Made by a program: the position numbers and the translations under genes
Notes under the pieces: model-generated
Database searches by the model: none
Told to the model about the DNA's origin: nothing
What the model saw: the letters and a program-made list of their open reading frames with translations, nothing else
Source of the DNA: an uncultured virus (IMG/VR IMGVR_UViG_3300010160_000040)
Lineage: Duplodnaviria > Heunggongvirae > Uroviricota > Caudoviricetes > Crassvirales
Direction: 5' to 3' (one strand)
DNA length: 20,000 nt
Virus record (IMG/VR): IMGVR_UViG_3300010160_000040
Shown: in pieces, positions 1 through 9,707 of the stretch
Layout: the number at the start of each line of letters is the position of its first letter
Position numbering within the stretch: the stretch's first letter is position 1

Positions 1-2
1 TT

Positions 3-869
3 TTTTACAGGTACATAATTAAATCCTTTGTTCCTATCAAACTTATTATAATATGAAAAATATTTATCTTCTTTAGAATTTTTTTGAGCAGGAACATCAC
101 CTAATAATTCAAAACGAGCTTCAACTTCATCAGTTGCTTTTGTAGTAGGTTTAGTAAAAGTTACTTTTTTAGCTTTTATTATATCTACATCAGGATTTGC
201 TAATCCTTGTTTAACCATTGCTCTTTTAGCCCATTGTGTAACATCTTCTGCAGCATTTCCTATAGCAGTAGATGTGCTTATCACACTTTTTTCAAATGCC
301 TGTAATGTTGATTCTTCTTTAACAGGTGTTTTAGCTACTGGTACTTTAGTAGGTTTTTTAGTTGGTATAAAACTTAAATCTCTTTTAGCAGCCACTGTCG
401 GTTTAACTACAGGTTTAGTTTCAAAGAAATTAGCTTGCTCTAACTTTTTATAAGTTTTACCATCTTCTTTTTTAGATATAATTTTAGCTACTTCTTTCTC
501 TCCTATAGTATCTACTATAGTTTTTAAAGGTGTAGTTGAATTAACATTTATAACTTTACCTAATTGTTTAGCAGCTTGATTTACACTCTCTGTAAAGTAA
601 TTTACATACCCTTCATGATTATTGTTATCTGAAGCTGGTGCATATTTTTCAAGAAATGTATCAACAGTATGCTTTCTTTCAGGTAGCGCATCTTTTTTAA
701 CTTGCCTATTTAAAGCACTCCAACCATTTTCTAATGTTGTAAATTGATCAAACCCTCCCTTATCTTTAGGTAATTTAGGGTCCCACCCTTTTAAATTCCC
801 AGGGTTGTTATTAAATTCTGCTCTCGTAACTCCAGTAGGGCGAGCTTTAGTTTCTACTGAAGTTTCTAC
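3..869 (-). CDS. Frameshift-accessed (-1 frame) C-terminal extension of the 677-aa cargo protein: NNPGN-type lysozyme-like domain plus Pro/Thr/Lys-rich linker; runs off the window
   Basis: Manual translation gives an open frame from 887 to 3 with no stop: KKVETSVETKARPTGVTRAEFNNNPGNLKGWDPKLPKDKGGFDQFTTLENGWSALNRQVKKDALPERKHTVDTFLEKYAPASDNNNHEGYVNYF...IISKKEDG... The upstream in-frame TAA is at 888-890. The first GTG (395-393) and ATG (218-216) lie downstream of the conserved domain. Not in the supplied ORF track. Confidence 0.85.
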
Positions 870-875
870 TTTTTT
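820..875 (-). promoter_or_regulatory. Putative programmed -1 ribosomal frameshift signal: A_AAA_AAG heptamer plus 3' stem-loop/pseudoknot
   Basis: Minus strand reads GGA AAA AAG TAG, with the heptamer at 875-869 in X_XXY_YYZ phase. Stem AACUUCAGUAG (864-854) pairs with CUACUGGAGUU (838-828): 11 bp including one G-U, 15-nt loop. Loop GCUC (845-842) can pair with downstream GAGC (823-820). Confidence 0.8.
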
Positions 876-2899
876 CCAGCAGCAGGTTTATCTAGATAAT
901 CGCCTTTATCTACATCTAATTTTAAACTATATCTAGTAACAGCTTCTGAGTTAGTATATTTTCTATTAGGATTATCTGAATGGTACCAATAAGCTTTAAA
1001 TCTACCCTGCTTATCTTTCTCTCTTATAGCATAAACATATTTAGATGGATCGTTTGGATCTAAATAAACTTTTTCACCATTTGGTTCAAATTGTAAACTA
1101 TGAATATCATTAATTAAATTATTAACATTTTCTTTGAAAGCTATTTGAGTATTTTCTTGCTCTCTTATATTTGGATCAGGGTTCTTAGAAGTTTGTTTTA
1201 AATCCTTTATAAAGAAATTTTTAAACGTACCATCTTTAGCAAGGACAGTAATTTTTACTGCATTACCCCAAGAAGTCTTATCTGCTGAAGCTACTCTTAG
1301 ACTATTATCTGGATCTACCGAATATATTGAAGCAGGAACATCTGCTAATTTATCGGTACCTAATGTATACCCTAAACTTTTGAAAAATTCAGCTGAAGAA
1401 TTTCCTTTAGTTAATTCTTTCATAGTACTACCATCTATAATAGATATATTTTGCGATAAGAAACTGGCAGATATATCTTCTAAAGTTATATTTTTATCCG
1501 CTTTTCCTTGTATACCTAATATTGAAGGATCTATGATACTTGTAACACCCTCAGTATTAAAATCTGTAACAGCTGCATTTGCATCTACATAACCACTTTC
1601 AACCATTTCTTTAAAAGCTTTTTCTAGTGAAGTTATAGATTTACCACCTTCCATCTTGTCTAAAGCTTTTTGCATTAATTTAGGAGTTATTGCTTTTAAA
1701 TAATCTTTACCACCTTTTCTTGCTGGGGCTATAATATTATCAACAACAGCATCTTGATTTATAGCTCTATAATATTTTTCTAACAAATCTAACTTTTTAT
1801 CATCCCAATCTGCTAACGATATACCTTCTTCTCTAGGGCCGCCTGTGTAACCTTGTGAAGTATTTCCTAAAGCATTAGGTACTTCTCTAACAGTAATACC
1901 CTTTAAAGTTTCATTCATTTGCTTTTTAAAGCTATCAATATTTTTAATACCTGCAACATTAACTTGAGCCCCTTTTGTTAAAGCTCTATTAGCTAAAGGT
2001 GTAGCTTCTACTTTCTTAGTTTCTTCTTTTGGTAATTGCTGATAAGATTTATTATCTTGAGTTATTTCTCTTTTATAATAACCAGGAAAACCATTAGCAG
2101 CATCTTCTATAAATTGTTGTTGAGTGTACTCTCCTCCACTTAATCCGTATAGTTGTTTTTGATATTGCATAAAAGGAGTGTTACTATTTCTATTTTCTTG
2201 TTCCCAAACATTTCTAGCCCACTCTCTCACTTTTTCTTCTTTTAGTTCTTCTCTAGTGTATTTATGATCTCCTATTTCAACCATAGGTACACCAGTAAGT
2301 GTATCATACTTTTTAGGAGCTAAATCAAATTGATTACTAACAGCATCGCCAACAAACTTATCCATTTGATGCTGATAGTTTTCTTTATCATATATACCAG
2401 TAGGTGCTATAGTATTATATAAAGCAGCATGCTGATCATCTGTAATTTCAGACATATTAACTTTATTCCAAGTTGGAGTTTGTCCTAAATAATTAAAGTT
2501 AGTACCAACAGCTCTATTTAATTTACCCTCTACTAAGTTTTTATTTTGAAATTTTGAATAAACAGCATCATTATTTATTCTTTTAATAGTATCATTAGTA
2601 TTATAAACTTCAATAATTTTAGTTAAATTTTTAGAAGCTTCTTTATAATCCATAGTATTATTTAATAAGCCATTTCTAACATTATCAGTATTTTTTTTTA
2701 GCCAGTTATTATACTTTTGTTCTTCTTCAGTTGTTGTGTAATTTCCGCCTTTAACTCGAAGTTGGCTTGTTTTATCTAATAAGTCATCAACAGCGTCATC
2801 ATTAGCTTCCTTTTGAACTAGATTCTTTTGCATAAAATCTAGGTTTAAAGGAGAAAACTGGGATTGATACTCTGTAGTACTTGGTTTAAAAAATCTCAT
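866..2899 (-). CDS. Putative virion cargo/ejection protein (crAss-like, syntenic with the gene after cargo protein 1)
   Basis: 677-aa ORF with N-terminal YQSQFSPLNLDFMQ and a helical N-terminal region. Lies downstream of the muzzle and cargo-1-like genes, as in crAss-like genomes. Confidence 0.6.
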   Translation of the reverse strand: MRFFKPSTTEYQSQFSPLNLDFMQKNLVQKEANDDAVDDLLDKTSQLRVKGGNYTTTEEEQKYNNWLKKNTDNVRNGLLNNTMDYKEASKNLTKIIEVYNTNDTIKRINNDAVYSKFQNKNLVEGKLNRAVGTNFNYLGQTPTWNKVNMSEITDDQHAALYNTIAPTGIYDKENYQHQMDKFVGDAVSNQFDLAPKKYDTLTGVPMVEIGDHKYTREELKEEKVREWARNVWEQENRNSNTPFMQYQKQLYGLSGGEYTQQQFIEDAANGFPGYYKREITQDNKSYQQLPKEETKKVEATPLANRALTKGAQVNVAGIKNIDSFKKQMNETLKGITVREVPNALGNTSQGYTGGPREEGISLADWDDKKLDLLEKYYRAINQDAVVDNIIAPARKGGKDYLKAITPKLMQKALDKMEGGKSITSLEKAFKEMVESGYVDANAAVTDFNTEGVTSIIDPSILGIQGKADKNITLEDISASFLSQNISIIDGSTMKELTKGNSSAEFFKSLGYTLGTDKLADVPASIYSVDPDNSLRVASADKTSWGNAVKITVLAKDGTFKNFFIKDLKQTSKNPDPNIREQENTQIAFKENVNNLINDIHSLQFEPNGEKVYLDPNDPSKYVYAIREKDKQGRFKAYWYHSDNPNRKYTNSEAVTRYSLKLDVDKGDYLDKPAAGKK

Positions 2900-2936: not shown

Positions 2937-4769
2937 TTATTCTATTGGTGTAACTGGAGTTTTAGAATCATTAGCGCTTATTTTCTTTCTACTACTCACC
3001 TTACCATCAGCATCCATAACATACTCATAACCATCTGCAAGTAGCGGTAGCATTGTGTTTTGTGTTTTATTCATAGCTCTATCTTGACCATATCCTAAAG
3101 AGTTTTGCCCAAAGTTATGTAGACCTTGACTTACAGCACTTCTAGCTGCATCTTGTTCTTGCTGTCTAGCTTCAGATTCTCTCATTTGAATTTGAGCATT
3201 ATACTGATCTTTAGTTAAGTTAGTTTGATTTAAACCTTGTGTATTAGCTATATCATATTGACTTTTAATACCAGCCATAGTAGCAGCTCTATCCATACCT
3301 TCTTTACTAGTCAGAATACCCATATTAGCAAGGTACTCACCAGCACTAGTAGTAGTATTTCTAGCAGCGTTTTTAGTTGAGTTGTAAGCAGATGTCAATC
3401 CTTTATTAGCAGCAGCCATAGCTCCTCTAGGATCAGCATATTGATACTTACTATTCATCCTATCAAAATTAACAGGATCACCACCTTTTAAACCTCGTGC
3501 AACATCATAAGCAGGGCCTATAGTACTAGCTAGGTAACCTAATGGATTAACTTTTGTTTGTAATGGCTTATTAGTATTTGTTATAGTAGCAGGTGTTGGT
3601 GATACAGAAGATTTAGATAATGTAGGAGATGTAGTTTGTAAACCTACTCTAGATCTTTCATTTTCTATTGCTTCTTGAATAGCCCCTCTGTCAGTTGGTT
3701 GAGTTACTAATGTATTTGCTATATTACCTACAGCCTCTTTATCAGAATTTATATCATCAGTAGTATAGAATCCACTACTTTGCTGGCTTGGAATTTCAAG
3801 AGGGCCAGTTGCTGCATTAGGTTTATAATTAGAAAAATCATTAGCTTGATTAGTTAACTTATTAATGTTGTTCATCCAATTAGGCCCGCCCATTTGAAAC
3901 TTACTTTGTGAGTTATTAGTCATACCAGTACTTTCTTGTACTTTCATAAGATTACCTAACTCCCTTTCTTTAGACTCCATAGATATCTTATCATCTGGTC
4001 TTCTGGAATACTTGTTATTAATCTTTTTACTTACATCAGCAAAAGTTCTTTTACCTAATTGTAATGTATCACTAAATATATAACCATTATGATTAGTTTC
4101 TCCTCCTTCTACTTCTGATTTACCAATAGGTATACCGCCATTCTCATGTGTATTACCGTGGTACTCTGTAAAATTACCACCCATCTTAAACTGCTTACCT
4201 TGTGCGCTAGGATTAAAGTTACCAGCTATGTTAGAAGTCATTGCATTCTGCTGGCTAGATTTAACAGCACTATAGTCTTCCATTTTATTTTCATAAGTTT
4301 TCTTATCTATAGCTCCACCAATAGCACCTCCTACAGCCCCGCCTATCATAGTACCTACTCCAGGAATTGGTATAAATGAACCAGCAATACCGCCTGCTAC
4401 ACTACCTATAGTTTTACCTATATTCTTTTGAACAGGGGCATTAGGATCCGCTCCAGCTTGTTGAGGAGCTTGTTGACCTCCACCAAGTCCAGATAGATTA
4501 GGAAGTTTAAAACCTCCTGGAGCAGCAGCAGGAGCTGCAGCAGCTGGTGCTGTAGTAGGCGGTGTAAAATGTTTAACAGGATCTGTTAAACTAGTAGGTA
4601 CAGCAGAAGCAGGTAAAAGCGGAGGTAAACTTCCACCACCTTGATACTTCTGATTAGGAGATAAAGAACCTCCCATTTGAAATTGATTATATGCTTCTTG
4701 AGTAGGAAACTTCTCGTAGAACTCCTTCTCGGTCATCTTGTGTGTTTTAAGTATTTCTTGCTTTGTCAT
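2937..4769 (-). CDS. Putative cargo protein 1-like ejection protein with glycine-zipper membrane segment
   Basis: 610 aa, low complexity and Gln/Asn/Ala-rich. Contains glycine zipper IGSVAGGIAGSFIPIPGVGTMIGGAVGGAIGG, motif GNTHENGGIPIGKSEVEGGE recalled from crAss-like cargo proteins, and a helical C-terminus. Synteny fits (crAss001 gp45-like position). Confidence 0.65.
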   Translation of the reverse strand: MTKQEILKTHKMTEKEFYEKFPTQEAYNQFQMGGSLSPNQKYQGGGSLPPLLPASAVPTSLTDPVKHFTPPTTAPAAAAPAAAPGGFKLPNLSGLGGGQQAPQQAGADPNAPVQKNIGKTIGSVAGGIAGSFIPIPGVGTMIGGAVGGAIGGAIDKKTYENKMEDYSAVKSSQQNAMTSNIAGNFNPSAQGKQFKMGGNFTEYHGNTHENGGIPIGKSEVEGGETNHNGYIFSDTLQLGKRTFADVSKKINNKYSRRPDDKISMESKERELGNLMKVQESTGMTNNSQSKFQMGGPNWMNNINKLTNQANDFSNYKPNAATGPLEIPSQQSSGFYTTDDINSDKEAVGNIANTLVTQPTDRGAIQEAIENERSRVGLQTTSPTLSKSSVSPTPATITNTNKPLQTKVNPLGYLASTIGPAYDVARGLKGGDPVNFDRMNSKYQYADPRGAMAAANKGLTSAYNSTKNAARNTTTSAGEYLANMGILTSKEGMDRAATMAGIKSQYDIANTQGLNQTNLTKDQYNAQIQMRESEARQQEQDAARSAVSQGLHNFGQNSLGYGQDRAMNKTQNTMLPLLADGYEYVMDADGKVSSRKKISANDSKTPVTPIE

Positions 4770-4775
4770 AATTAA

Positions 4776-7700
4776 TTATTTTAAATTGTCTAACCAATTG
4801 CTCTTATTATTATTTAATTTACCACCGTTTTTATATTTTTTCTTTATACTTAAATCAGGTATAAATCCTTTAGTGTCATCAGGCATTAATGACTCTTTTG
4901 GTACATTCCATTTATCAGCTGTTTTTCCTGCTATTTTTTCTAACTCTTTAAGAAATTCATCTACCTTGACTGGATCATTATATCCATTTTTCATATTTGT
5001 TTCTAGCAATTTAGATATTTTTGTATGTTTACCTAAAGTATTCATTCCAGTAAGGCCTTTATTAATAAGTTCAAATTGAGGGTTAGCTTTATCATTAACA
5101 ATTTTTGCCCATATTGGATAAGAGTCCCCGCTTAAACTACCAGGATTAAAGTCCCATTTACCAGGTATATTAGAAATTAATTTATTTAGATTTACTGCTG
5201 TTTTACCAGCACTAATAGGATTTTTACTAAAAAAACCAAAATTTTTAAATTCTCCTACAGGATTAGTATCAGAAGGTAAGCTAACATGACTGCTAAATGA
5301 TCTATTAGGTGAATGAAATGTTGTTTCTGCAATATCAGCCTGTTTATTATTTAAATACCCTCTTAAATAAGCTCTTAATTTACCTTGACCTGCTGGCGCA
5401 TTACTATATAAGGAGGCAACTTCTTTTGATACTAAAGTACCTTCTTCCCCATGTATTAACCCTGATTTTTTAAAAGCTTCTAAATTTTCAGGTGTAAATG
5501 CTGAATTAGAAACAACAGAATTTTCATTAATTTTATTTAAGATTGCTTCTCTTACTTTTAATGCTGGTTTAGAATTTAAAATAGGTATTGTTATATTTCT
5601 TTCTAACTCTTTAGCTTTGTGAATTAGTTTTGAATTTTTAGGTGTAGCTGCTGTTACTGCGGCTCTACTGCTTGTTATAATATCATTAAGTCTAATCCAT
5701 TCTGGAGTGCCTGGCATATGGCCATTAATAGGTCTTGCAGTTTCATTAAGTACATTACCTACAGTAGAACTTGCGGCTGCAGATTTACTAATTACATTAT
5801 TTTTCAAATTTCTCATTCCTCCAATAGGATTTAAAGCCTCTGCAGCTACTACAGCAGCTTTACCTAATTTACTAGCAGCTTTAATAGGTAAACTACCAGG
5901 CATTAACATTAACTCAGGATAAGATGGTTCTAAAGCACCTTTGCCAGTAGCAGTTCCTTTTTTAGGACCTTGTTGATATACCTCTTGAGTTTGAGGATTA
6001 TTGACTGGAGTCCAAACTGGATTCATTCTTTTTGCTTCTTCTTTAGCTTCAGCATCAAGTCTATTTTTAGGTATATTAGAAGATAATCCTTTAAACCCTC
6101 CTAATTGAAATTTTTGAGGATACTCAGTTACTGTTTTACCTTTAAAGTTATACTCTCCACCTGGCTTCATCATCTGAGTGTCGCCACTATCTGATACACC
6201 AAGAACAGGGTAGTTTACTCCTTTCATTGTTATTTGATTAGAGTTAATTTTTGTTACTTTACCAGGATGAGCCCACTGACCTCTATTATCTTCTATAACA
6301 TTATTAGGATTACTTAAACCATCTAACCAACCACCGTTTCTTAATTTAGATTTTGCATTTTTAGATTGATAATCTAATAATGCTTTATTAGTTTCAGGCC
6401 CATATATACCATCAAAGGTTCCATCTAAGGTTCTATATTTAGTAGTAGATTTAGGTAGTTTATAACCTTTATTTACTAAAGTGGTTTGTAATTTTTTTAC
6501 ATTATAATCTCCACTTCCAGGAATAATATTATTTAACGCATTATCAGTATAATCTTTATTTGCTGTTAAGTTATTAGAAAGTTGCCCACTATTTTTAAAT
6601 GGCACTTCTGATTCTATTTCCCGTAAATATGCTCTAACTAAGTTTATATCATCTCCAAAATTGCTAGGATTTTTATCATTATCTCTATATCTTAGTTTAT
6701 GTTCTAATAAAGCAGCTTTAACATTAAGATTACTTGCATATTTAGATTGCATTGCTTTATATGTATCTGGTCCAAAATAACCATCATCTTTTACTCCTAA
6801 ATTTTTTTGTATTTGTTTTATATTATTAGGAGATAAATTTCCATAAGCTATCATTGCCATACCTGGCTCTCTTAATCTATGGGCATCATATTCAGCAGTC
6901 CCTGGTATTTTGTATCTTTCTTCACCATGTCGTATGTATTCATATGCAGTTTTGTACTCATAAGGATTAAATATATTCTCAAATAATTTAGGATCTTTTA
7001 AATGACTAGATTCTGCAATTATATTATCTATAAACTCATGCCCACTTTCAGGATTTTCTCCAACATTAATATTAGAATTTGTTTGTTCTGGCTTTATAGA
7101 GGCTCTATTAGGCTCTTTGTCAGAAGCTCCTTTCCAAGTTATACTACCTACATTTTTACCTCTATTAAGAGTTTTAAAAAATTCAGGATATTCTTTTCTT
7201 AAAAAATTATCGTATTCTTTTTGATTAGGATTGCTACCTATATATGGTATATAATCAGTATCTTTTCTTGTGTTATATCTTTGATTATTCCACATAAATT
7301 CTTCTTCTCCTGCTTTTCTTGCAGCATTAAAAGCTTGTCCTCTTGTTCCACTTTTAGTGTAATCATCTACTCCCCAATTGTAAGGATTTAAAGTAGCTTT
7401 TACTGCATCCCAACTTGGTAATATATCACTATTTTCTTCATCATTTACAGGGCCTCCCATGTCAAACCTCTTCTTAGATAAACTATTTAACAGTCCACCA
7501 TTCTTTGCATAAACCTTTCCATCATTAGAATTAGATTTAGATATAGTATTCATCATCTCAGTAATCTGATCATCTGAATAATACTGTCTTAATCTTTGTA
7601 ATTGATTGTAATCTTCAGATTCTTTAGTACCTTGATTATAAGACTCATTTACTTTATCTAAGTATTCCTTTTTAAAAGGTTGGGTAAGTGGGTCATAAAT

Positions 7701-9707
7701 TTTATTTTCTCCACTTAGCTGTCTAATAGAATGTATCTGAGATCTTACTTCTTCAGGATCTGTAAGCTTATTATATGTGTCTTCTTTATGTAATGCGGGA
7801 TTATATTCTGGAGTATTTTTATTTATATACTCTCTATCTTTAACAGTCATTAAATTATCATGAGTTAATTCATGGGCAAATAAACTATTAACTAATTTAG
7901 GATTGTTTTGTACAAAATTCTTGTTTAAGTTTATTTGTTTATTACCTTTATTATCAATGTAACCTTCTCCATAGTTTTTTAAGTTCTCTACTACACTAGG
8001 AGTAACATTATAATTTGATTCATTGTAATATTTCTTATGTTGTTTAACACGTCTTTCTAATCTATTAGGATTTGTTATACCTAAATCTATATTTTGATTT
8101 CTTAATATGTTGTCATACATAGGTGAGTTATACCAACCTTTTACATACTCTGTAGCATTAGTAACATCTGGAGCTTGTTCAGTCTTATTATTATCTAAAC
8201 CATCTAACTGTCCTCCGTTTCTTAATTTAGATTTTACTGTTTCTACTATAGGTTTACCTATATCATCTTTAGCCTCAATTACTTCAGCAGTTCCTGATAT
8301 ATAGTTACCAGCTTCTCTAATTCCTTTTTTAATAGGAGTTACTATTTTATTAGGTATTCCTGCATTAAACATTTTTGTAGCTAATTTAGTAGCCATATTT
8401 TTACTAGCTATAAAACTTTTAAGTCCAGGAACTAATCCAATTGCTGCTCCAGTTTTATCTCCTTGGTGCATGTCCATAGCAGAGCCTGCAACAGCCATTA
8501 TTGGATTAAACATACCTGCTACATCAGTTGTAAATTTTACCCCTTTTCTAACTTCTTCTTTTGTAAGAGGTTGTACAGGCATTTTATCTATACTTTTTAA
8601 AGTTCCCTTATTTTTATTTAAATTACTTTTTTGTATTAAAGTTTGATTTGGAATTACAGGATTGCTTACTCTTGTATTATCTGAAATTTGAATTTCATTA
8701 TATTTAAAACCTGTATGAAATTTATTAGCAACATTTTTATTTGTATATTTTTCTACTTGAGAATTTTTAACATTGGTTACAGTATTTTCTCTTTTATCCT
8801 TATTTTTTAAAGCAGTTTTATCTTTATCTTTTGAATAACTAGAAGATTTATTTATTTTTTTTTCTAAATTATCACCTTCAAGAAACTTAGCTCTTTGAAT
8901 TAATGCTTGATTTGGAATTACAGCAGCCTTTACTTTTGTATTATCTTGTATTGGATTATCCTCATCTAATCCATCTAACCATCCACCTTTTCTAAACTCT
9001 TGTCTTCCAGTATTATTACCTTTATTAATATACCCACTTGGCTTACCTTGTATTTTTAATGCTTTGCTTCCTGTATATAAAGTTTTTGGGTCCTTATATA
9101 CAGGCTTAGTTGTTGGTTCAGTATAATAAGGATATATATACGGCCCATTATTACTAATACTTATATCTAAAGAAGCTGGATTTGTTTTCTTTTTAAAGTT
9201 TTCATCATAGTCCCCACTATTAATAATATATCCTACACCTATAGAATCTTGTTTACTCGCACTAATTTTTTTATCAATAAAAGCTTGAGATGCTTTAGGA
9301 AATATTTTTTTTACTTCATTAATTTTATTAATAGATGGATCCACTGTTTCACCTACAGTCGGTATAACTTTACGATTAGTTTTATCTTTAATATGATACA
9401 ATGGATTTACGCCCCAATTTTCACCCCAATCATATAAATATTTTTCAGGTTTAATTTCTGTATTAAGACTTCCTGGACTTATTTTTTCATTTTTTTTTAA
9501 ATCTTTTTTCCAAGTAAAATAATTATTATAAGATTCATTATATTCTTTAAGTGTATCACCTATATTAAGTTTATTTACTTCATCAGTAAAAAAACTAAAA
9601 TTTTGTTTAGCTAAAGCAGTACTATCTTCATATGCTTGATTAGCTTTATCAAATTCTAATTTATCTCTATATACTTTAGTTCTTTGTTTTTTATTTTTAT
9701 CAGGCAT
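4776..9707 (-). CDS. Large modular virion-associated protein (zincin-like HExxH module, two peptidoglycan-binding repeats, GG-motif-delimited modules)
   Basis: 1643 aa. AHELTH at about 7860-7877 with downstream PEEVRSQI. PG_binding_1-like segments IKQIQKNLGVKDDGYFGPDTYKAM and VKKLQTTLVNKGY...DGIYGPETNKALLDYQ. Repeated (R/K)(N/K)GGxLDGL motifs. Confidence 0.7.
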   Translation of the reverse strand: MPDKNKKQRTKVYRDKLEFDKANQAYEDSTALAKQNFSFFTDEVNKLNIGDTLKEYNESYNNYFTWKKDLKKNEKISPGSLNTEIKPEKYLYDWGENWGVNPLYHIKDKTNRKVIPTVGETVDPSINKINEVKKIFPKASQAFIDKKISASKQDSIGVGYIINSGDYDENFKKKTNPASLDISISNNGPYIYPYYTEPTTKPVYKDPKTLYTGSKALKIQGKPSGYINKGNNTGRQEFRKGGWLDGLDEDNPIQDNTKVKAAVIPNQALIQRAKFLEGDNLEKKINKSSSYSKDKDKTALKNKDKRENTVTNVKNSQVEKYTNKNVANKFHTGFKYNEIQISDNTRVSNPVIPNQTLIQKSNLNKNKGTLKSIDKMPVQPLTKEEVRKGVKFTTDVAGMFNPIMAVAGSAMDMHQGDKTGAAIGLVPGLKSFIASKNMATKLATKMFNAGIPNKIVTPIKKGIREAGNYISGTAEVIEAKDDIGKPIVETVKSKLRNGGQLDGLDNNKTEQAPDVTNATEYVKGWYNSPMYDNILRNQNIDLGITNPNRLERRVKQHKKYYNESNYNVTPSVVENLKNYGEGYIDNKGNKQINLNKNFVQNNPKLVNSLFAHELTHDNLMTVKDREYINKNTPEYNPALHKEDTYNKLTDPEEVRSQIHSIRQLSGENKIYDPLTQPFKKEYLDKVNESYNQGTKESEDYNQLQRLRQYYSDDQITEMMNTISKSNSNDGKVYAKNGGLLNSLSKKRFDMGGPVNDEENSDILPSWDAVKATLNPYNWGVDDYTKSGTRGQAFNAARKAGEEEFMWNNQRYNTRKDTDYIPYIGSNPNQKEYDNFLRKEYPEFFKTLNRGKNVGSITWKGASDKEPNRASIKPEQTNSNINVGENPESGHEFIDNIIAESSHLKDPKLFENIFNPYEYKTAYEYIRHGEERYKIPGTAEYDAHRLREPGMAMIAYGNLSPNNIKQIQKNLGVKDDGYFGPDTYKAMQSKYASNLNVKAALLEHKLRYRDNDKNPSNFGDDINLVRAYLREIESEVPFKNSGQLSNNLTANKDYTDNALNNIIPGSGDYNVKKLQTTLVNKGYKLPKSTTKYRTLDGTFDGIYGPETNKALLDYQSKNAKSKLRNGGWLDGLSNPNNVIEDNRGQWAHPGKVTKINSNQITMKGVNYPVLGVSDSGDTQMMKPGGEYNFKGKTVTEYPQKFQLGGFKGLSSNIPKNRLDAEAKEEAKRMNPVWTPVNNPQTQEVYQQGPKKGTATGKGALEPSYPELMLMPGSLPIKAASKLGKAAVVAAEALNPIGGMRNLKNNVISKSAAASSTVGNVLNETARPINGHMPGTPEWIRLNDIITSSRAAVTAATPKNSKLIHKAKELERNITIPILNSKPALKVREAILNKINENSVVSNSAFTPENLEAFKKSGLIHGEEGTLVSKEVASLYSNAPAGQGKLRAYLRGYLNNKQADIAETTFHSPNRSFSSHVSLPSDTNPVGEFKNFGFFSKNPISAGKTAVNLNKLISNIPGKWDFNPGSLSGDSYPIWAKIVNDKANPQFELINKGLTGMNTLGKHTKISKLLETNMKNGYNDPVKVDEFLKELEKIAGKTADKWNVPKESLMPDDTKGFIPDLSIKKKYKNGGKLNNNKSNWLDNLK
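6315..6354. repeat. 40-bp direct repeat copy 1 (encodes KSKLRNGGWLDGL)
   Basis: taaaccatctaaccaaccaccgtttcttaatttagatttt; 36/40 identical to 8196-8235. Confidence 0.9.
8196..8235. repeat. 40-bp direct repeat copy 2 (encodes KSKLRNGGQLDGL)
   Basis: taaaccatctaactgtcctccgtttcttaatttagatttt; 36/40 identical to 6315-6354. A more diverged partial copy lies at about 8967-8993. Confidence 0.9.

What the first reader, a model, noticed from the sequence alone, without database searches (positions are those of the whole stretch)
820..890. Programmed -1 ribosomal frameshift at the end of a crAss-like cargo protein gene
Seen in sequence: (1) the last two codons of the 677-aa ORF form A_AAA_AAG immediately before TAG; (2) 4 nt downstream an 11-bp stem begins (864-854 with 838-828), and its 15-nt loop can pair GCUC with downstream GAGC, a possible H-type pseudoknot; (3) the -1 frame is closed by TAA at 888-890, so the two frames overlap for only about 19 nt, which contain the heptamer and no start codon; (4) the -1 frame then runs at least 289 codons. 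Established: A_AAA_AAG with a 3' hairpin or pseudoknot is the classic bacterial -1 frameshift signal (E. coli dnaX, IS3-family elements). Phages use such shifts in tail chaperones and to add domains to capsid/tail proteins (lambda G/GT, T7 10A/10B). Inference: a 677-aa form and a form of at least 966 aa are made at a fixed ratio. I do not know of this being described for a crAss-like ejection protein.
Basis: partly seen in the sequence, partly recalled or inferred. Interest (0 to 1): 0.9.

Follow-up and report, generated by a model that had tools for sequence, protein, structure and literature searches.

The report
Frameshift arms a crAss-like cargo protein
A freshwater crAss-like phage very probably uses a programmed backward ribosome slip at the last two codons of a virion cargo gene, so that some copies gain a 543-residue tail carrying a cell-wall-cutting enzyme.

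Summary
On the minus strand a 677-aa ORF (w2899-866) ends GGA AAA AAG TAG, with A_AAA_AAG in the correct phase. The -1 frame is closed by TAA 6 codons upstream. It then runs 543 codons in the full genome and has no ATG/GTG/TTG for its first 158 codons. An 11-bp hairpin starts 4 nt after the heptamer.

An assembly indel is excluded. The same A6-G-TAG junction occurs in 2 of 2 close IMG/VR relatives and, without indels, in contigs from 4 of 4 further runs from four studies. The start-less ORF is under purifying selection (dN/dS 0.17-0.37). Only 5 in-frame A_AAA_AAG heptamers occur in 29,277 codons of the genome, and the other 4 open 6-29 codons in the -1 frame.

The extension carries an Enc34-type (PHA02564) muralytic domain plus a widespread C-terminal module. 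The upstream gene lies between the muzzle gene and the giant RNA-polymerase-like genes of a Crassvirales layout.

A second crAss-like contig (L058) has G_GGA_AAG, a 7-nt spacer and an 11-bp hairpin at the same gene junction. There the -1 ORF is an unrelated, start-less NlpC/P60-lysozyme.

The main caveats are no compensatory stem changes, a sterically doubtful pseudoknot, and no RNA or protein data. I read it as a -1 frameshift of known type in a new gene context, at about 75% confidence.

The parts
866..2899 (-). Zero-frame gene: 677-aa cargo-position protein (P0001), ending ...PAAGKK-TAG.
   Evidence: It lies between the muzzle homologue (w9711-14627) and the giant 2324/2271-aa genes. Its family of 25 hits measures 586-685 aa when complete, plus one of 875 aa, and none is a fused form of about 1,200 aa.
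869..875 (-). Slippery heptamer A_AAA_AAG in X_XXY_YYZ phase, forming the last two sense codons.
   Evidence: It is identical in L002 and L003. No indel was seen in contigs of runs X3-X6. It is 1 of only 5 in-frame copies in the genome.
866..868 (-). Zero-frame stop TAG directly after the heptamer.
   Evidence: It is conserved in 3 of 3 genomes.
888..890 (-). TAA that closes the -1 frame 6 codons before the post-slip codon GTA.
   Evidence: The TAA sits at the same alignment columns in all three genomes (invariant T2 A3 A4).
828..864 (-). Predicted stimulatory hairpin: 5' arm 864-854, 15-nt loop 853-839, 3' arm 838-828. The conserved core is 9 bp (862-854 / 838-830) with a 6-nt spacer.
   Evidence: -12.9 kcal/mol, top 1.7% of native windows; 8 pairs invariant, 2 changed on one side but still paired, 1 broken in 2 of 3 sequences, 0 compensatory.
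820..823 (-). GAGC that could pair with loop GCUC (845-842), the proposed pseudoknot stem 2. Doubtful.
   Evidence: The complementarity is invariant in 3 of 3 genomes but lies in conserved codons. The linker to stem 2 is only 4 nt for an 11-bp stem 1 (inference).
1..869 (-). -1 frame extension ORF. The window holds 289 of its 543 codons. It continues to G000:C1:52612 and has no ATG/GTG/TTG before w395.
   Evidence: dN/dS is 0.17-0.37 over the first 175 codons against L002 and L003, while the other two frames carry 15-34 stops.
441..842 (-). Enc34-type (PHA02564) muralytic domain, residues 10-143 of the extension. The putative catalytic Glu is E135 (w467-465).
   Evidence: The profile hits PDB 7q47 (Enc34 endolysin) at E=2.7e-20 and 9vvp_L Gp29 at E=3.6e-26. 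The AF2 model has pLDDT 90.2. Foldseek ranks 7q47 first, prob 1.00, TM 0.59.
1..257 (-). Start of the conserved C-terminal module (extension residues about 205-543), which continues beyond the window.
   Evidence: The AF2 model has pLDDT 92.4. There is only a weak NAGPA/DUF2233-like fold match.

Best explanation
This is a programmed -1 ribosomal frameshift. Ribosomes translating the 677-aa cargo-position gene reach A_AAA_AAG with the lysine tRNAs on AAA (P site) and AAG (A site). They are held there by a hairpin that starts 4-6 nt downstream. A fraction of them slip back one base to AAA_AAA and go on with GTA GAA. This yields a fusion of about 1,220 aa, ...PAAGKK-VETSVETK..., whose added 543 residues carry an Enc34-type peptidoglycan-cleaving domain and a conserved C-terminal module. 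Ribosomes that do not slip stop at the adjacent TAG and make the 677-aa form. A P-site-only slip of the AAG tRNA while TAG waits in the A site would give the same product. The sequence anatomy, its conservation and the domain identities are shown. That slipping occurs, its ratio, and that both forms are packaged, with the enzyme-bearing form helping to breach the cell wall during ejection, are inferred.
For: 1. The anatomy is complete: heptamer in phase, adjacent zero-frame stop, -1 frame closed 6 codons upstream, and a hairpin 4-6 nt downstream.
2. The extension cannot start on its own. No ATG/GTG/TTG occurs for 158 codons in this genome, 213 in L002 and 26 in L003. In every case the first one lies beyond the conserved NNPGN motif.
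3. It is not an error. The junction CTGGAAAAAAGTAGAA is identical in 2 of 2 close IMG/VR relatives. Contigs from 4 of 4 further runs, from four studies, cross it with 0 gaps.
4. The extension is translated. dN/dS is 0.17, 0.31 and 0.37 over its first 175 codons, and the other frames hold 15-34 stops.
5. The heptamer is rare. There are 5 in-frame copies in 29,277 codons, and the other 4 have -1 extensions of 6-29 codons.
6. The hairpin is unusually stable for these genomes: top 1.7% (own), 0.9% (L002) and 0.4% (L003) of native 50-nt windows.
7. The conserved DNA starts at the site. Identity is 0.53-0.57 in the 30 nt before the heptamer and 0.20-0.43 further upstream. It is 0.83-0.90 from the heptamer on, although the upstream proteins are only about 30% identical. 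Contigs X4-3 and X6-9 diverge at w890 and w879.
8. There is an independent analogue. In L058 the 932-aa gene at the same position ends with G_GGA_AAG one codon after a -1-frame TAG. A 7-nt spacer and an 11-bp hairpin follow (-14.7 kcal/mol, top 1.3%). The -1 ORF is a start-less NlpC/P60 + Phage_lysozyme2 protein, followed by the same phrog_32390 gene. This heptamer is not a homopolymer run, which favours ribosomal over transcriptional slippage.
9. Four of the 25 family hits end in GKK: P0061 (47% identical), P0084 (27%), P0062 (a 90%-identical fragment of this protein's C-terminal end) and P0072 (tail identical to L003's). P0065 ends RKK. Gene callers start nine relatives with this N-terminal region (P0005, P0008, P0009, P0019, P0020, P0022, P0023, P0025, P0035) part-way into it. 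Six of these starts lie inside the domain; those of P0005, P0019 and P0020 are the same internal Met, and P0019 is L003's own gene.
Against: No RNA, peptide or reporter data exist, and no RNA run was available. There are no compensatory base changes in the stem (0 of 11 pairs). The stem is no better conserved than the 80-100% identical module around it, so the structure rests on prediction alone. Against local dinucleotide shuffles the fold is unremarkable, with z from -0.75 to -1.5. The 4-nt spacer of the 11-bp form is short; the conserved 9-bp core has 6 nt. All junction copies whose DNA I could read share one recently exchanged module (dS 0.19-0.35), so they amount to roughly one lineage. 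The high efficiency of A_AAA_AAG in E. coli depends on its lysine tRNA set (recalled knowledge). The host here is unknown, probably Bacteroidota, and may differ. In 38 of 44 distant loci the same enzyme domain has its own start codon.
Confidence: 0.75

Rival explanations
1. Transcriptional slippage. The RNA polymerase adds one extra A on the A6 run (T6 on the template strand), so part of the mRNAs carry A7 and encode the same fusion without any ribosomal slip.
For: The site is a homopolymer run and the product would be identical. The polymerase that transcribes crAss-like late genes is unusual, and its slippage behaviour is unknown to me.
Against: Six A is shorter than the runs of about 8-9 or more used in known programmed transcriptional slippage (recalled knowledge). 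A stable hairpin sits at frameshift-stimulator distance. The analogous junction in L058 uses G_GGA_AAG, which has no long homopolymer.
Confidence: 0.08
2. The extension is a separate protein, made by non-canonical initiation or by termination-reinitiation at the TAG, as a neighbouring gene and not as a fusion.
For: In distant phages the same enzyme domain usually has its own start. In 6 of 6 such loci from IMG/VR (L004-L009) it opens a separate ATG gene. Other members of the C-terminal-module family start with Met, for example P0011 and P0027. L057 and L063 have an in-frame ATG near their heptamer.
Against: Between the -1-frame TAA and the NNPGN motif this genome has no ATG, GTG, TTG, CTG, ATT, ATA or ATC. 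The same holds in L002, and L003 has only one non-conserved ATC. The slippery heptamer sits exactly in the 22-nt overlap in 3 of 3 genomes.
Confidence: 0.07
3. Artefact or decay. Either an assembly indel splits one continuous gene, or a real frameshift mutation has left the extension as a dying pseudogene.
For: Homopolymer runs are classic indel sites.
Against: The same A6 is found in this genome, L002 and L003. It is also found in contigs from four further runs (X3-X6, four studies), with 0 gaps. dN/dS is 0.17-0.37 across dS up to 0.35 and the frame stays open for 514-543 codons in all three genomes. No continuous fused homologue occurs among 25 family hits in 1.84 billion representatives.
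Confidence: 0.03

Closest known systems
E. coli dnaX gamma/tau and IS3-family (IS911, IS150) -1 frameshift signals
   Same: The same A_AAA_AAG heptamer in the same phase, with a 3' stem-loop a few nucleotides downstream. Two products come from one start (recalled knowledge; anatomy).
   Different: I see no Shine-Dalgarno-like element upstream of the heptamer in the sequence. The zero-frame stop is directly adjacent. In dnaX the shifted frame ends almost at once and gives the shorter product, whereas here it adds 543 residues. The host is probably a Bacteroidota bacterium, where such signals are untested.
Phage structural-gene frameshifts: lambda G/GT tail assembly chaperone and T7 capsid 10A/10B
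   Same: A -1 slip near the end of a late phage gene sets a fixed ratio of a short and a C-terminally extended protein (recalled knowledge; the PRFect paper PMC10885494, passages read, reports 2,397 of 2,476 annotated SEA-PHAGES frameshifts in tail assembly chaperones).
   Different: The gene here is an internal cargo or ejection protein of a crAss-like podovirus. The extension is enzymatic, being muralytic, and long (543 aa).
Hafnia phage Enc34 endolysin catalytic domain (PDB 7q47, family PHA02564)
   Same: The extension's N-terminal domain matches it by profile (E=2.7e-20) and by fold (Foldseek prob 1.00, TM 0.59). The aligned residues include the HExG glutamate, an aromatic residue in (K/R)(Y/W)AP and a tyrosine. 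The paper shows muralytic activity and names Glu131, Trp79 and Tyr95 (PMC8943055; abstract and passages read).
   Different: Enc34's enzyme is a lysis-cassette endolysin with a C-terminal membrane anchor. Here the domain lies inside a virion-module protein with no start codon of its own.
Muralytic domains on ejected internal proteins of podoviruses (T7 gp16) and crAss001 cargo proteins gp45/gp46
   Same: A cell-wall-cutting domain carried on a protein that leaves the capsid before the DNA (T7: recalled knowledge). The gene position matches the cargo genes between the muzzle gp44 and the RNA-polymerase-associated gp47 of crAss001 (PMC10172136, passages read).
   Different: The passages of the crAss001 paper that I searched contain no occurrence of 'peptidoglycan'. 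Three named relatives have no such extension gene: cr55_1, Cellulophaga phage phi14:2 and Flavobacterium phage Fpv1 (0 of 3). Sequence similarity of P0001 to the cr55_1 gene at that position is weak (hhalign E=0.006, probability 6%).

Membership tests
Bacterial/phage -1 programmed ribosomal frameshift site | Slippery heptamer X_XXY_YYZ in the zero-frame phase | tested here: met
   A_AAA_AAG at w875-869 with codons AAA and AAG in frame. It is 1 of 5 in-frame copies in 29,277 codons.
Bacterial/phage -1 programmed ribosomal frameshift site | A long -1 ORF with a short overlap and no initiation codon of its own | tested here: met
   The overlap is 22 nt and the -1 ORF is 543 codons. The first ATG/GTG/TTG comes 158 codons in. 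The layout is the same in L002 and L003.
Bacterial/phage -1 programmed ribosomal frameshift site | A 3' stimulatory RNA structure about 4-9 nt after the heptamer | tested here: inconclusive
   An 11-bp hairpin is predicted, with a 9-bp core conserved in 3 of 3 genomes and a spacer of 4-6 nt. It ranks in the top 0.4-1.7% of native windows. However, there are 0 compensatory pairs, z is only -0.75 to -1.5 against local shuffles, and its conservation equals that of the surrounding module.
Bacterial/phage -1 programmed ribosomal frameshift site | Conservation of the site in relatives | tested here: met
   The heptamer and stop are identical in 2 of 2 close relatives. Contigs of 4 of 4 other runs show no indel. 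All of these share one module, so the phylogenetic depth is small.
Bacterial/phage -1 programmed ribosomal frameshift site | A trans-frame protein is actually made | not testable with these tools
   No RNA run was listed and no proteomics are available.
H-type frameshift pseudoknot | A second stem between the hairpin loop and downstream sequence, with loops long enough to span the stems | tested here: inconclusive
   The GCUC/GAGC pairing is present and invariant in 3 of 3 genomes. It is only 4 bp, lies in conserved codons, and the connecting loop is 4 nt for an 11-bp stem 1 (geometric inference). No pseudoknot-capable folding was run.
Enc34-type endolysin catalytic domain (PHA02564) | Sequence and fold similarity to the solved domain | tested here: met
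   The profile of 28 sequences hits 7q47_A at E=2.7e-20. The AF2 model has pLDDT 90.2. Foldseek ranks 7q47_B first with prob 1.00, TM 0.59, E=1.7e-3.
Enc34-type endolysin catalytic domain (PHA02564) | Catalytic glutamate and the two aromatic residues named in the paper | tested here: met
   E135 (KKEDG) aligns with the HENG glutamate of 7q47, Y76 (KYAP) with RWAP, and Y88 with the AYA tyrosine. These residues are invariant in A2. The mapping onto the paper's Glu131/Trp79/Tyr95 numbering is by position and may be off by about one residue; I did not verify it.
Enc34-type endolysin catalytic domain (PHA02564) | Muralytic activity | not testable with these tools
   Activity is shown only for Enc34 itself (PMC8943055).
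Crassvirales cargo protein (crAss001 gp45/gp46 class) | Gene position between the muzzle gene and the giant RNA-polymerase-associated genes | tested here: met
   The 1638-aa neighbour matches the muzzle ('stabilization') proteins of 80 phage records, mostly named crAss-like phages. The gene order is 1638-1643-610-677(+543)-2324-2271 aa. cr55_1 has muzzle-682-597-4551 aa.
Crassvirales cargo protein (crAss001 gp45/gp46 class) | Sequence homology to a characterised cargo protein | tested here: inconclusive
   There is no PHROG or Pfam family and no tblastn hit in GenBank phages. hhalign against cr55_1 gp069 gives E=0.006 and probability 6%. The N-terminal R-[FY]...[FY] motif is shared with phi14:2 g068 and Fpv1 gp32. 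crAss001 itself was not compared.
Crassvirales cargo protein (crAss001 gp45/gp46 class) | Presence inside the virion | not testable with these tools
   The phage is uncultured.
NAGPA/DUF2233 phosphodiester glycosidase fold (C-terminal module) | Fold similarity | tested here: inconclusive
   Foldseek prob 0.75, TM 0.26-0.29. VIA-align Z 4.9, rmsd 5.5 A over 174 residues. No PDB sequence hit.

The most novel reading that the evidence does not exclude
Crassvirales-like phages repeatedly use X_XXA_AAG -1 frameshifting at the end of the cargo gene that precedes the virion RNA-polymerase genes. This produces a minor, enzyme-armed version of that cargo protein. The frameshift cassette (heptamer, stop, hairpin) is the 5' end of an exchangeable 'plug-in' module, so unrelated wall-degrading domains can be grafted onto divergent cargo genes without needing a promoter or start codon. 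Here the grafted domain is Enc34-type; in L058 it is NlpC/P60 + lysozyme. The slip rate would then set how many enzyme-bearing copies enter each virion and are ejected first through the tail.
Probability: 0.4. Interest if true: 0.75.

Novelty: new member of a known kind. Interest (0 to 1): 0.6.

Why it matters
How crAss-like phages cross the cell wall is unknown, and the crAss001 cargo proteins gp45 and gp46 have no shown function beyond a proposed channel role. A frameshift that fuses a peptidoglycan-cutting enzyme to a cargo protein would give these phages an ejected wall-breaching enzyme. It would also give a built-in way to dose that enzyme.

For annotation, gene callers currently truncate these extensions. 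Nine called relatives start part-way into this region. The mosaic break exactly at the slippery site suggests that a frameshift cassette can act as a portable joint for domain exchange, which reporter assays could test.

No report of frameshifting in Crassvirales cargo genes turned up in five full-text searches. Subscription-only papers were not covered.

Tried and rejected
- GenBank phages. Megablast of w1-3000 and tblastn of both proteins found nothing.
- Single-protein IMG/VR scans with P0001 and P0061 found no relative. The scan with alignment A1 added only two loci that carry the C-terminal module without this junction.
- DNA of the 35-50% identical relatives (P0008, P0009, P0022, P0023, P0025, P0035, P0061, P0065, P0084) could not be obtained. 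The one metagenome scan returned only this genome plus distant domain relatives, and the look-up by exact protein is closed. Their junctions are therefore inferred only from truncated gene calls and from C-termini ending GKK or RKK.
- Fused continuous homologue. None was found among 25 family hits. None of 21 long proteins carrying the C-terminal module shows blastp similarity to P0001 or an NNPGN motif.
- Stop-codon reassignment. The zero frame after TAG meets TAG and TAA within 22 codons. The genome has no tRNA genes, and its stop usage is ordinary: TAA 58, TAG 9, TGA 8. Rejected.
- RNA evidence. No RNA holder was listed.
- Covariation. Three sequences gave no compensatory pair.
- L058 relatives. 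Of 17 loci found, only L063 (cut at the contig start) shares the junction region. It keeps G_GGA_AAG but also has an ATG in the -1 frame, so it is ambiguous.
- L057 has G_GGA_AAG right after a -1-frame TGA. It also has an ATG 4 codons after the slip point and no notable hairpin (9.4th percentile), so it is ambiguous too.
- Function of the C-terminal module. There is no Pfam or PDB sequence hit and only a weak fold lead.
- Earlier findings of this scan were not open.
- No pseudoknot-capable folding program was available.


Full report
**The observation.** The genes of this window lie on the minus strand. The 677-aa ORF w2899..866 ends GGA AAA AAG TAG. The heptamer A_AAA_AAG occupies w875-869 in X_XXY_YYZ phase, and TAG is w868-866. 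The -1 frame is closed by TAA at w890-888 and is then open to the end of the window.

The window is the reverse strand of G000:C1:31850-51849, in a 96,997-bp virus record with direct terminal repeats. In that record the -1 frame runs 543 codons after the slip point (L001:1832-3463). The trans-frame product would therefore be about 1,220 aa, reading ...PAAGKK-VETSVETK....

The first ATG/GTG/TTG in the -1 frame is a GTG at w395, 158 codons in. The 22-nt overlap holds no near-cognate start either (read).

**Chance.** ORFs of at least 100 aa in the genome hold 29,277 codons and only 5 in-frame A_AAA_AAG. Four of these lead into -1 frames of 6, 7, 9 and 29 codons. The fifth forms the last two codons of this gene and leads into 543 codons.

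The 50 nt after the heptamer fold at -12.9 kcal/mol. Only 1.7% of 8,708 native 50-nt windows of the same coding strand fold as well. Against dinucleotide shuffles of the local, more G+C-rich sequence the z-score is only -0.75 to -1.44. The hairpin is thus unusual for the genome but not for its own composition.

**Not an artefact.** Two IMG/VR contigs encode extensions that are 88% and 84% identical in their best segments (L002, L003). Both carry the identical CTGGAAAAAAGTAGAA, the TAG, a -1-frame TAA a few codons upstream, and a long start-less -1 ORF of 517 and 514 aa.

Logan contigs of four further runs from four studies cross w866-875 with 0 gaps: X3 record 1, X4 record 3, X5 record 5, and X6 records 8 and 9.

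Over the first 175 codons of the extension, dN/dS is 0.17, 0.31 and 0.37 at dS 0.19-0.35, and the other two frames carry 15-34 stops. A sequencing indel or a decaying pseudogene is therefore very unlikely.

The genome has no tRNA genes and ordinary stop usage (TAA 58, TAG 9, TGA 8). The zero frame after TAG meets another TAG and a TAA within 22 codons. Stop-codon reassignment therefore explains nothing here.

**A module boundary at the site.** The upstream proteins of L002 and L003 are only about 30% identical to P0001, and only over the first 290 residues or so. Ungapped DNA identity is 0.53-0.57 in the 30 nt before the heptamer and 0.20-0.43 further upstream. It is 0.83-0.90 from the heptamer on and stays at 0.70-1.00 for about 540 nt. 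Contigs X4-3 and X6-9 become unlike the window upstream of w890 and w879.

The frameshift cassette is therefore the 5' edge of a recently shared module. This cuts both ways. It shows the cassette travels with the extension. It also means that the stem is no better conserved than its surroundings, and that all copies I could read amount to roughly one lineage.

Pair counting on the three sequences gives 8 invariant pairs. Two pairs changed on one side and still pair (U.G to C-G, U-A to U.G; X4 shows the same two changes). One pair is broken in 2 of 3 sequences, and none is compensatory. The 9-bp core with a 6-nt spacer is present in all three.

**The pseudoknot.** GCUC in the loop and GAGC downstream are complementary and invariant. 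The pairing is only 4 bp and lies in conserved codons. Only 4 nt would connect the 3' arm of an 11-bp stem 1 to stem 2, and by my geometric reasoning that is too short to span the helix. I treat the pseudoknot as unsupported. A simple hairpin suffices in known bacterial cases (recalled knowledge).

**What the pieces are.**
- *Genome context.* The 1638-aa neighbour (w9711-14627) matches the 'stabilization' or virion structural protein of 80 phage records. These include many named crAss-like phages, Cellulophaga phage phi14:2 and Flavobacterium phages. It also hits phrog_28748. This protein is the muzzle protein in crAss001 terms (PMC10172136, passages read).
- *Gene order.* The order is 1638-1643-610-677(+543)-2324-2271 aa. 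That matches the crAss layout muzzle, cargo proteins, giant RNA-polymerase-associated proteins, for example cr55_1 with muzzle-682-597-4551 aa.
- *P0001.* It has no Pfam or PHROG family. Its similarity to the cr55_1 gene at the same position is weak: hhalign E=0.006, probability 6%, with a shared N-terminal R-[FY]...[FY] motif that is also seen in phi14:2 g068 and Fpv1 gp32. 'Cargo protein' is therefore a positional assignment.
- *The 'NNPGN' domain.* A profile of 28 domain sequences hits PDB 7q47, the catalytic domain of the Hafnia phage Enc34 endolysin, at E=2.7e-20. It also hits the N-terminus of a 1295-aa 'Gp29' (9vvp_L) at E=3.6e-26. The AF2 model has pLDDT 90.2, and Foldseek ranks 7q47 first with prob 1.00 and TM 0.59. 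The Enc34 paper shows muralytic activity and names Glu131, Trp79 and Tyr95 (PMC8943055; abstract and passages read). The aligned residues here are E135, Y76 and Y88, all invariant in alignment A2.
- *The C-terminal module.* Residues about 205-543 form a widespread module. In other phages it follows M23 peptidase, phage lysozyme or M15-like domains (the last label is my reading of the motifs). It also ends proteins of 1,078-2,399 aa. It models at pLDDT 92.4 and has only a weak NAGPA/DUF2233-like fold match: Foldseek prob 0.75, VIA Z 4.9.

**Comparative support beyond the module.**
- In 38 of 44 distant loci the Enc34-like domain has a start codon upstream of, or within 3 codons of, the match. 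Three loci are cut by contig ends and three have unexplained stops. The start-less state is therefore special to this clade.
- Among 25 hits to P0001 in 1.84 billion representative proteins, complete members are 586-685 aa, with one of 875 aa. None is a fused form of about 1,200 aa.
- Four of the 25 end in GKK: P0061 (47% identical over its full length), P0084 (27%), P0062 (a 90%-identical fragment) and P0072 (tail identical to L003's). P0065 ends RKK and P0080 ends QKK. Most of the others end differently.
- Gene callers start nine relatives of this N-terminal region part-way into it (P0005, P0008, P0009, P0019, P0020, P0022, P0023, P0025, P0035). Six of these starts lie inside the domain. P0037 has its own Met before NNPGN. 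Their DNA could not be fetched.
- In IMG/VR relatives of the upstream family, 4 loci (L053, L054, L059, L060) end in TAA, and the next gene has its own ATG.
- L058 is a crAss-like contig in which the gene after the junction hits the same phrog_32390 as here. Its 932-aa gene carries G_GGA_AAG one codon after a -1-frame TAG and 4 codons before its own TAG. A 7-nt spacer and an 11-bp hairpin follow (-14.7 kcal/mol, top 1.3% of native windows). The -1 ORF of 321 codons contains NlpC/P60 and Phage_lysozyme2, and its first ATG lies inside the NlpC/P60 region. This is an independent, non-homologous instance of the same design.
- L063 and L057 also have G_GGA_AAG at the junction, but each also has an ATG in the -1 frame, so both are ambiguous.
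- Three named crAss-like phages that I inspected have no extension gene: cr55_1, phi14:2 and Fpv1 (0 of 3).

**Mechanism and rivals.** I put about 75% on -1 ribosomal frameshifting, either tandem slippage on A_AAA_AAG or a P-site slip while TAG waits in the A site. Transcriptional slippage on A6 would give the same protein (about 8%). It is disfavoured by the short run, by the hairpin and by the non-homopolymer heptamer of L058. Independent initiation or reinitiation (about 7%) lacks any start or near-cognate codon. Artefact or pseudogene stands at about 3%.

Nothing here measures the slip rate. The efficiency of A_AAA_AAG known from E. coli depends on its lysine tRNAs (recalled knowledge) and need not transfer to the unknown host, which is probably a Bacteroidota bacterium.

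**Novelty.** The mechanism is classical. The context, a muralytic extension of a crAss-like cargo-position protein, did not turn up in full-text searches. The passages I read mention frameshifting only generically or as sequencing error. The 2016 recoding review has no occurrence of 'peptidoglycan', 'muralytic', 'ejection', 'internal virion' or 'lysozyme' in the 300,000 characters held. [quoted passage not shown] Subscription-only literature was not covered. I classify the finding as a new member of a known kind.

Noticed in passing
L058:7772-8734 (IMG/VR contig, 35% G+C): A second, non-homologous -1 frameshift candidate at the same gene junction. G_GGA_AAG is followed by a 7-nt spacer and an 11-bp hairpin. 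The -1 ORF is a start-less NlpC/P60 + Phage_lysozyme2 protein, and the next gene hits phrog_32390 as in the window's genome.
   Followed up: partly
L057:7117-7564 and L063:116-1011: G_GGA_AAG also sits at the end of the upstream cargo-family ORF. In L057 it comes directly after a -1-frame TGA. Both loci also have an ATG in the -1 frame, so frameshift and overlapping start cannot be told apart.
   Followed up: partly
window 1-257 (-) and beyond (extension residues about 205-543): A widespread module of about 330 aa (AF2 pLDDT 92.4) with no Pfam or PDB sequence match. In other phages it is fused behind M23, lysozyme or M15-like domains, or it ends proteins of 1,078-2,399 aa. It has a weak NAGPA/DUF2233 (phosphodiester glycosidase) fold resemblance (VIA Z 4.9).
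   Followed up: partly
window 866-900 (-); contigs of runs X4 and X6: Homology between related phages starts within about 15 nt of the heptamer, and two contigs diverge at w890 and w879. The frameshift cassette therefore marks a recombination (mosaic) boundary.
   Followed up: yes
window 2937-4769 (-) and 4776-9707 (-): The 610-aa and 1643-aa neighbours give weak hits to PHROGs labelled 'endolysin': phrog_12490 at E=1.4e-6, and phrog_2649 and phrog_1224 at about 3e-4. There may be more wall-active segments in this cargo block.
   Followed up: no
L043, L046, L050 (metagenome loci): The tblastn match to the Enc34-like domain lies in a frame that hits a stop 6-8 codons on. This could be another frame change, a different genetic code or an alignment artefact.
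   Followed up: no
L079:16234-16276 (Cellulophaga phage phi14:2 g068): RefSeq moved the start of g068, the positional counterpart of P0001, 14 codons downstream in 2020. The original start gives MNRYSRTSTSRF..., which fits the N-terminal R-[FY] motif shared by this protein family.
   Followed up: no
PDB 9vvp chain L ('Gp29', 1295 aa): This is the best solved match to the Enc34-like domain (E=3.6e-26), with the domain at the N-terminus of a very long protein. No paper was found for the entry, so its biological role is unknown to me.
   Followed up: partly
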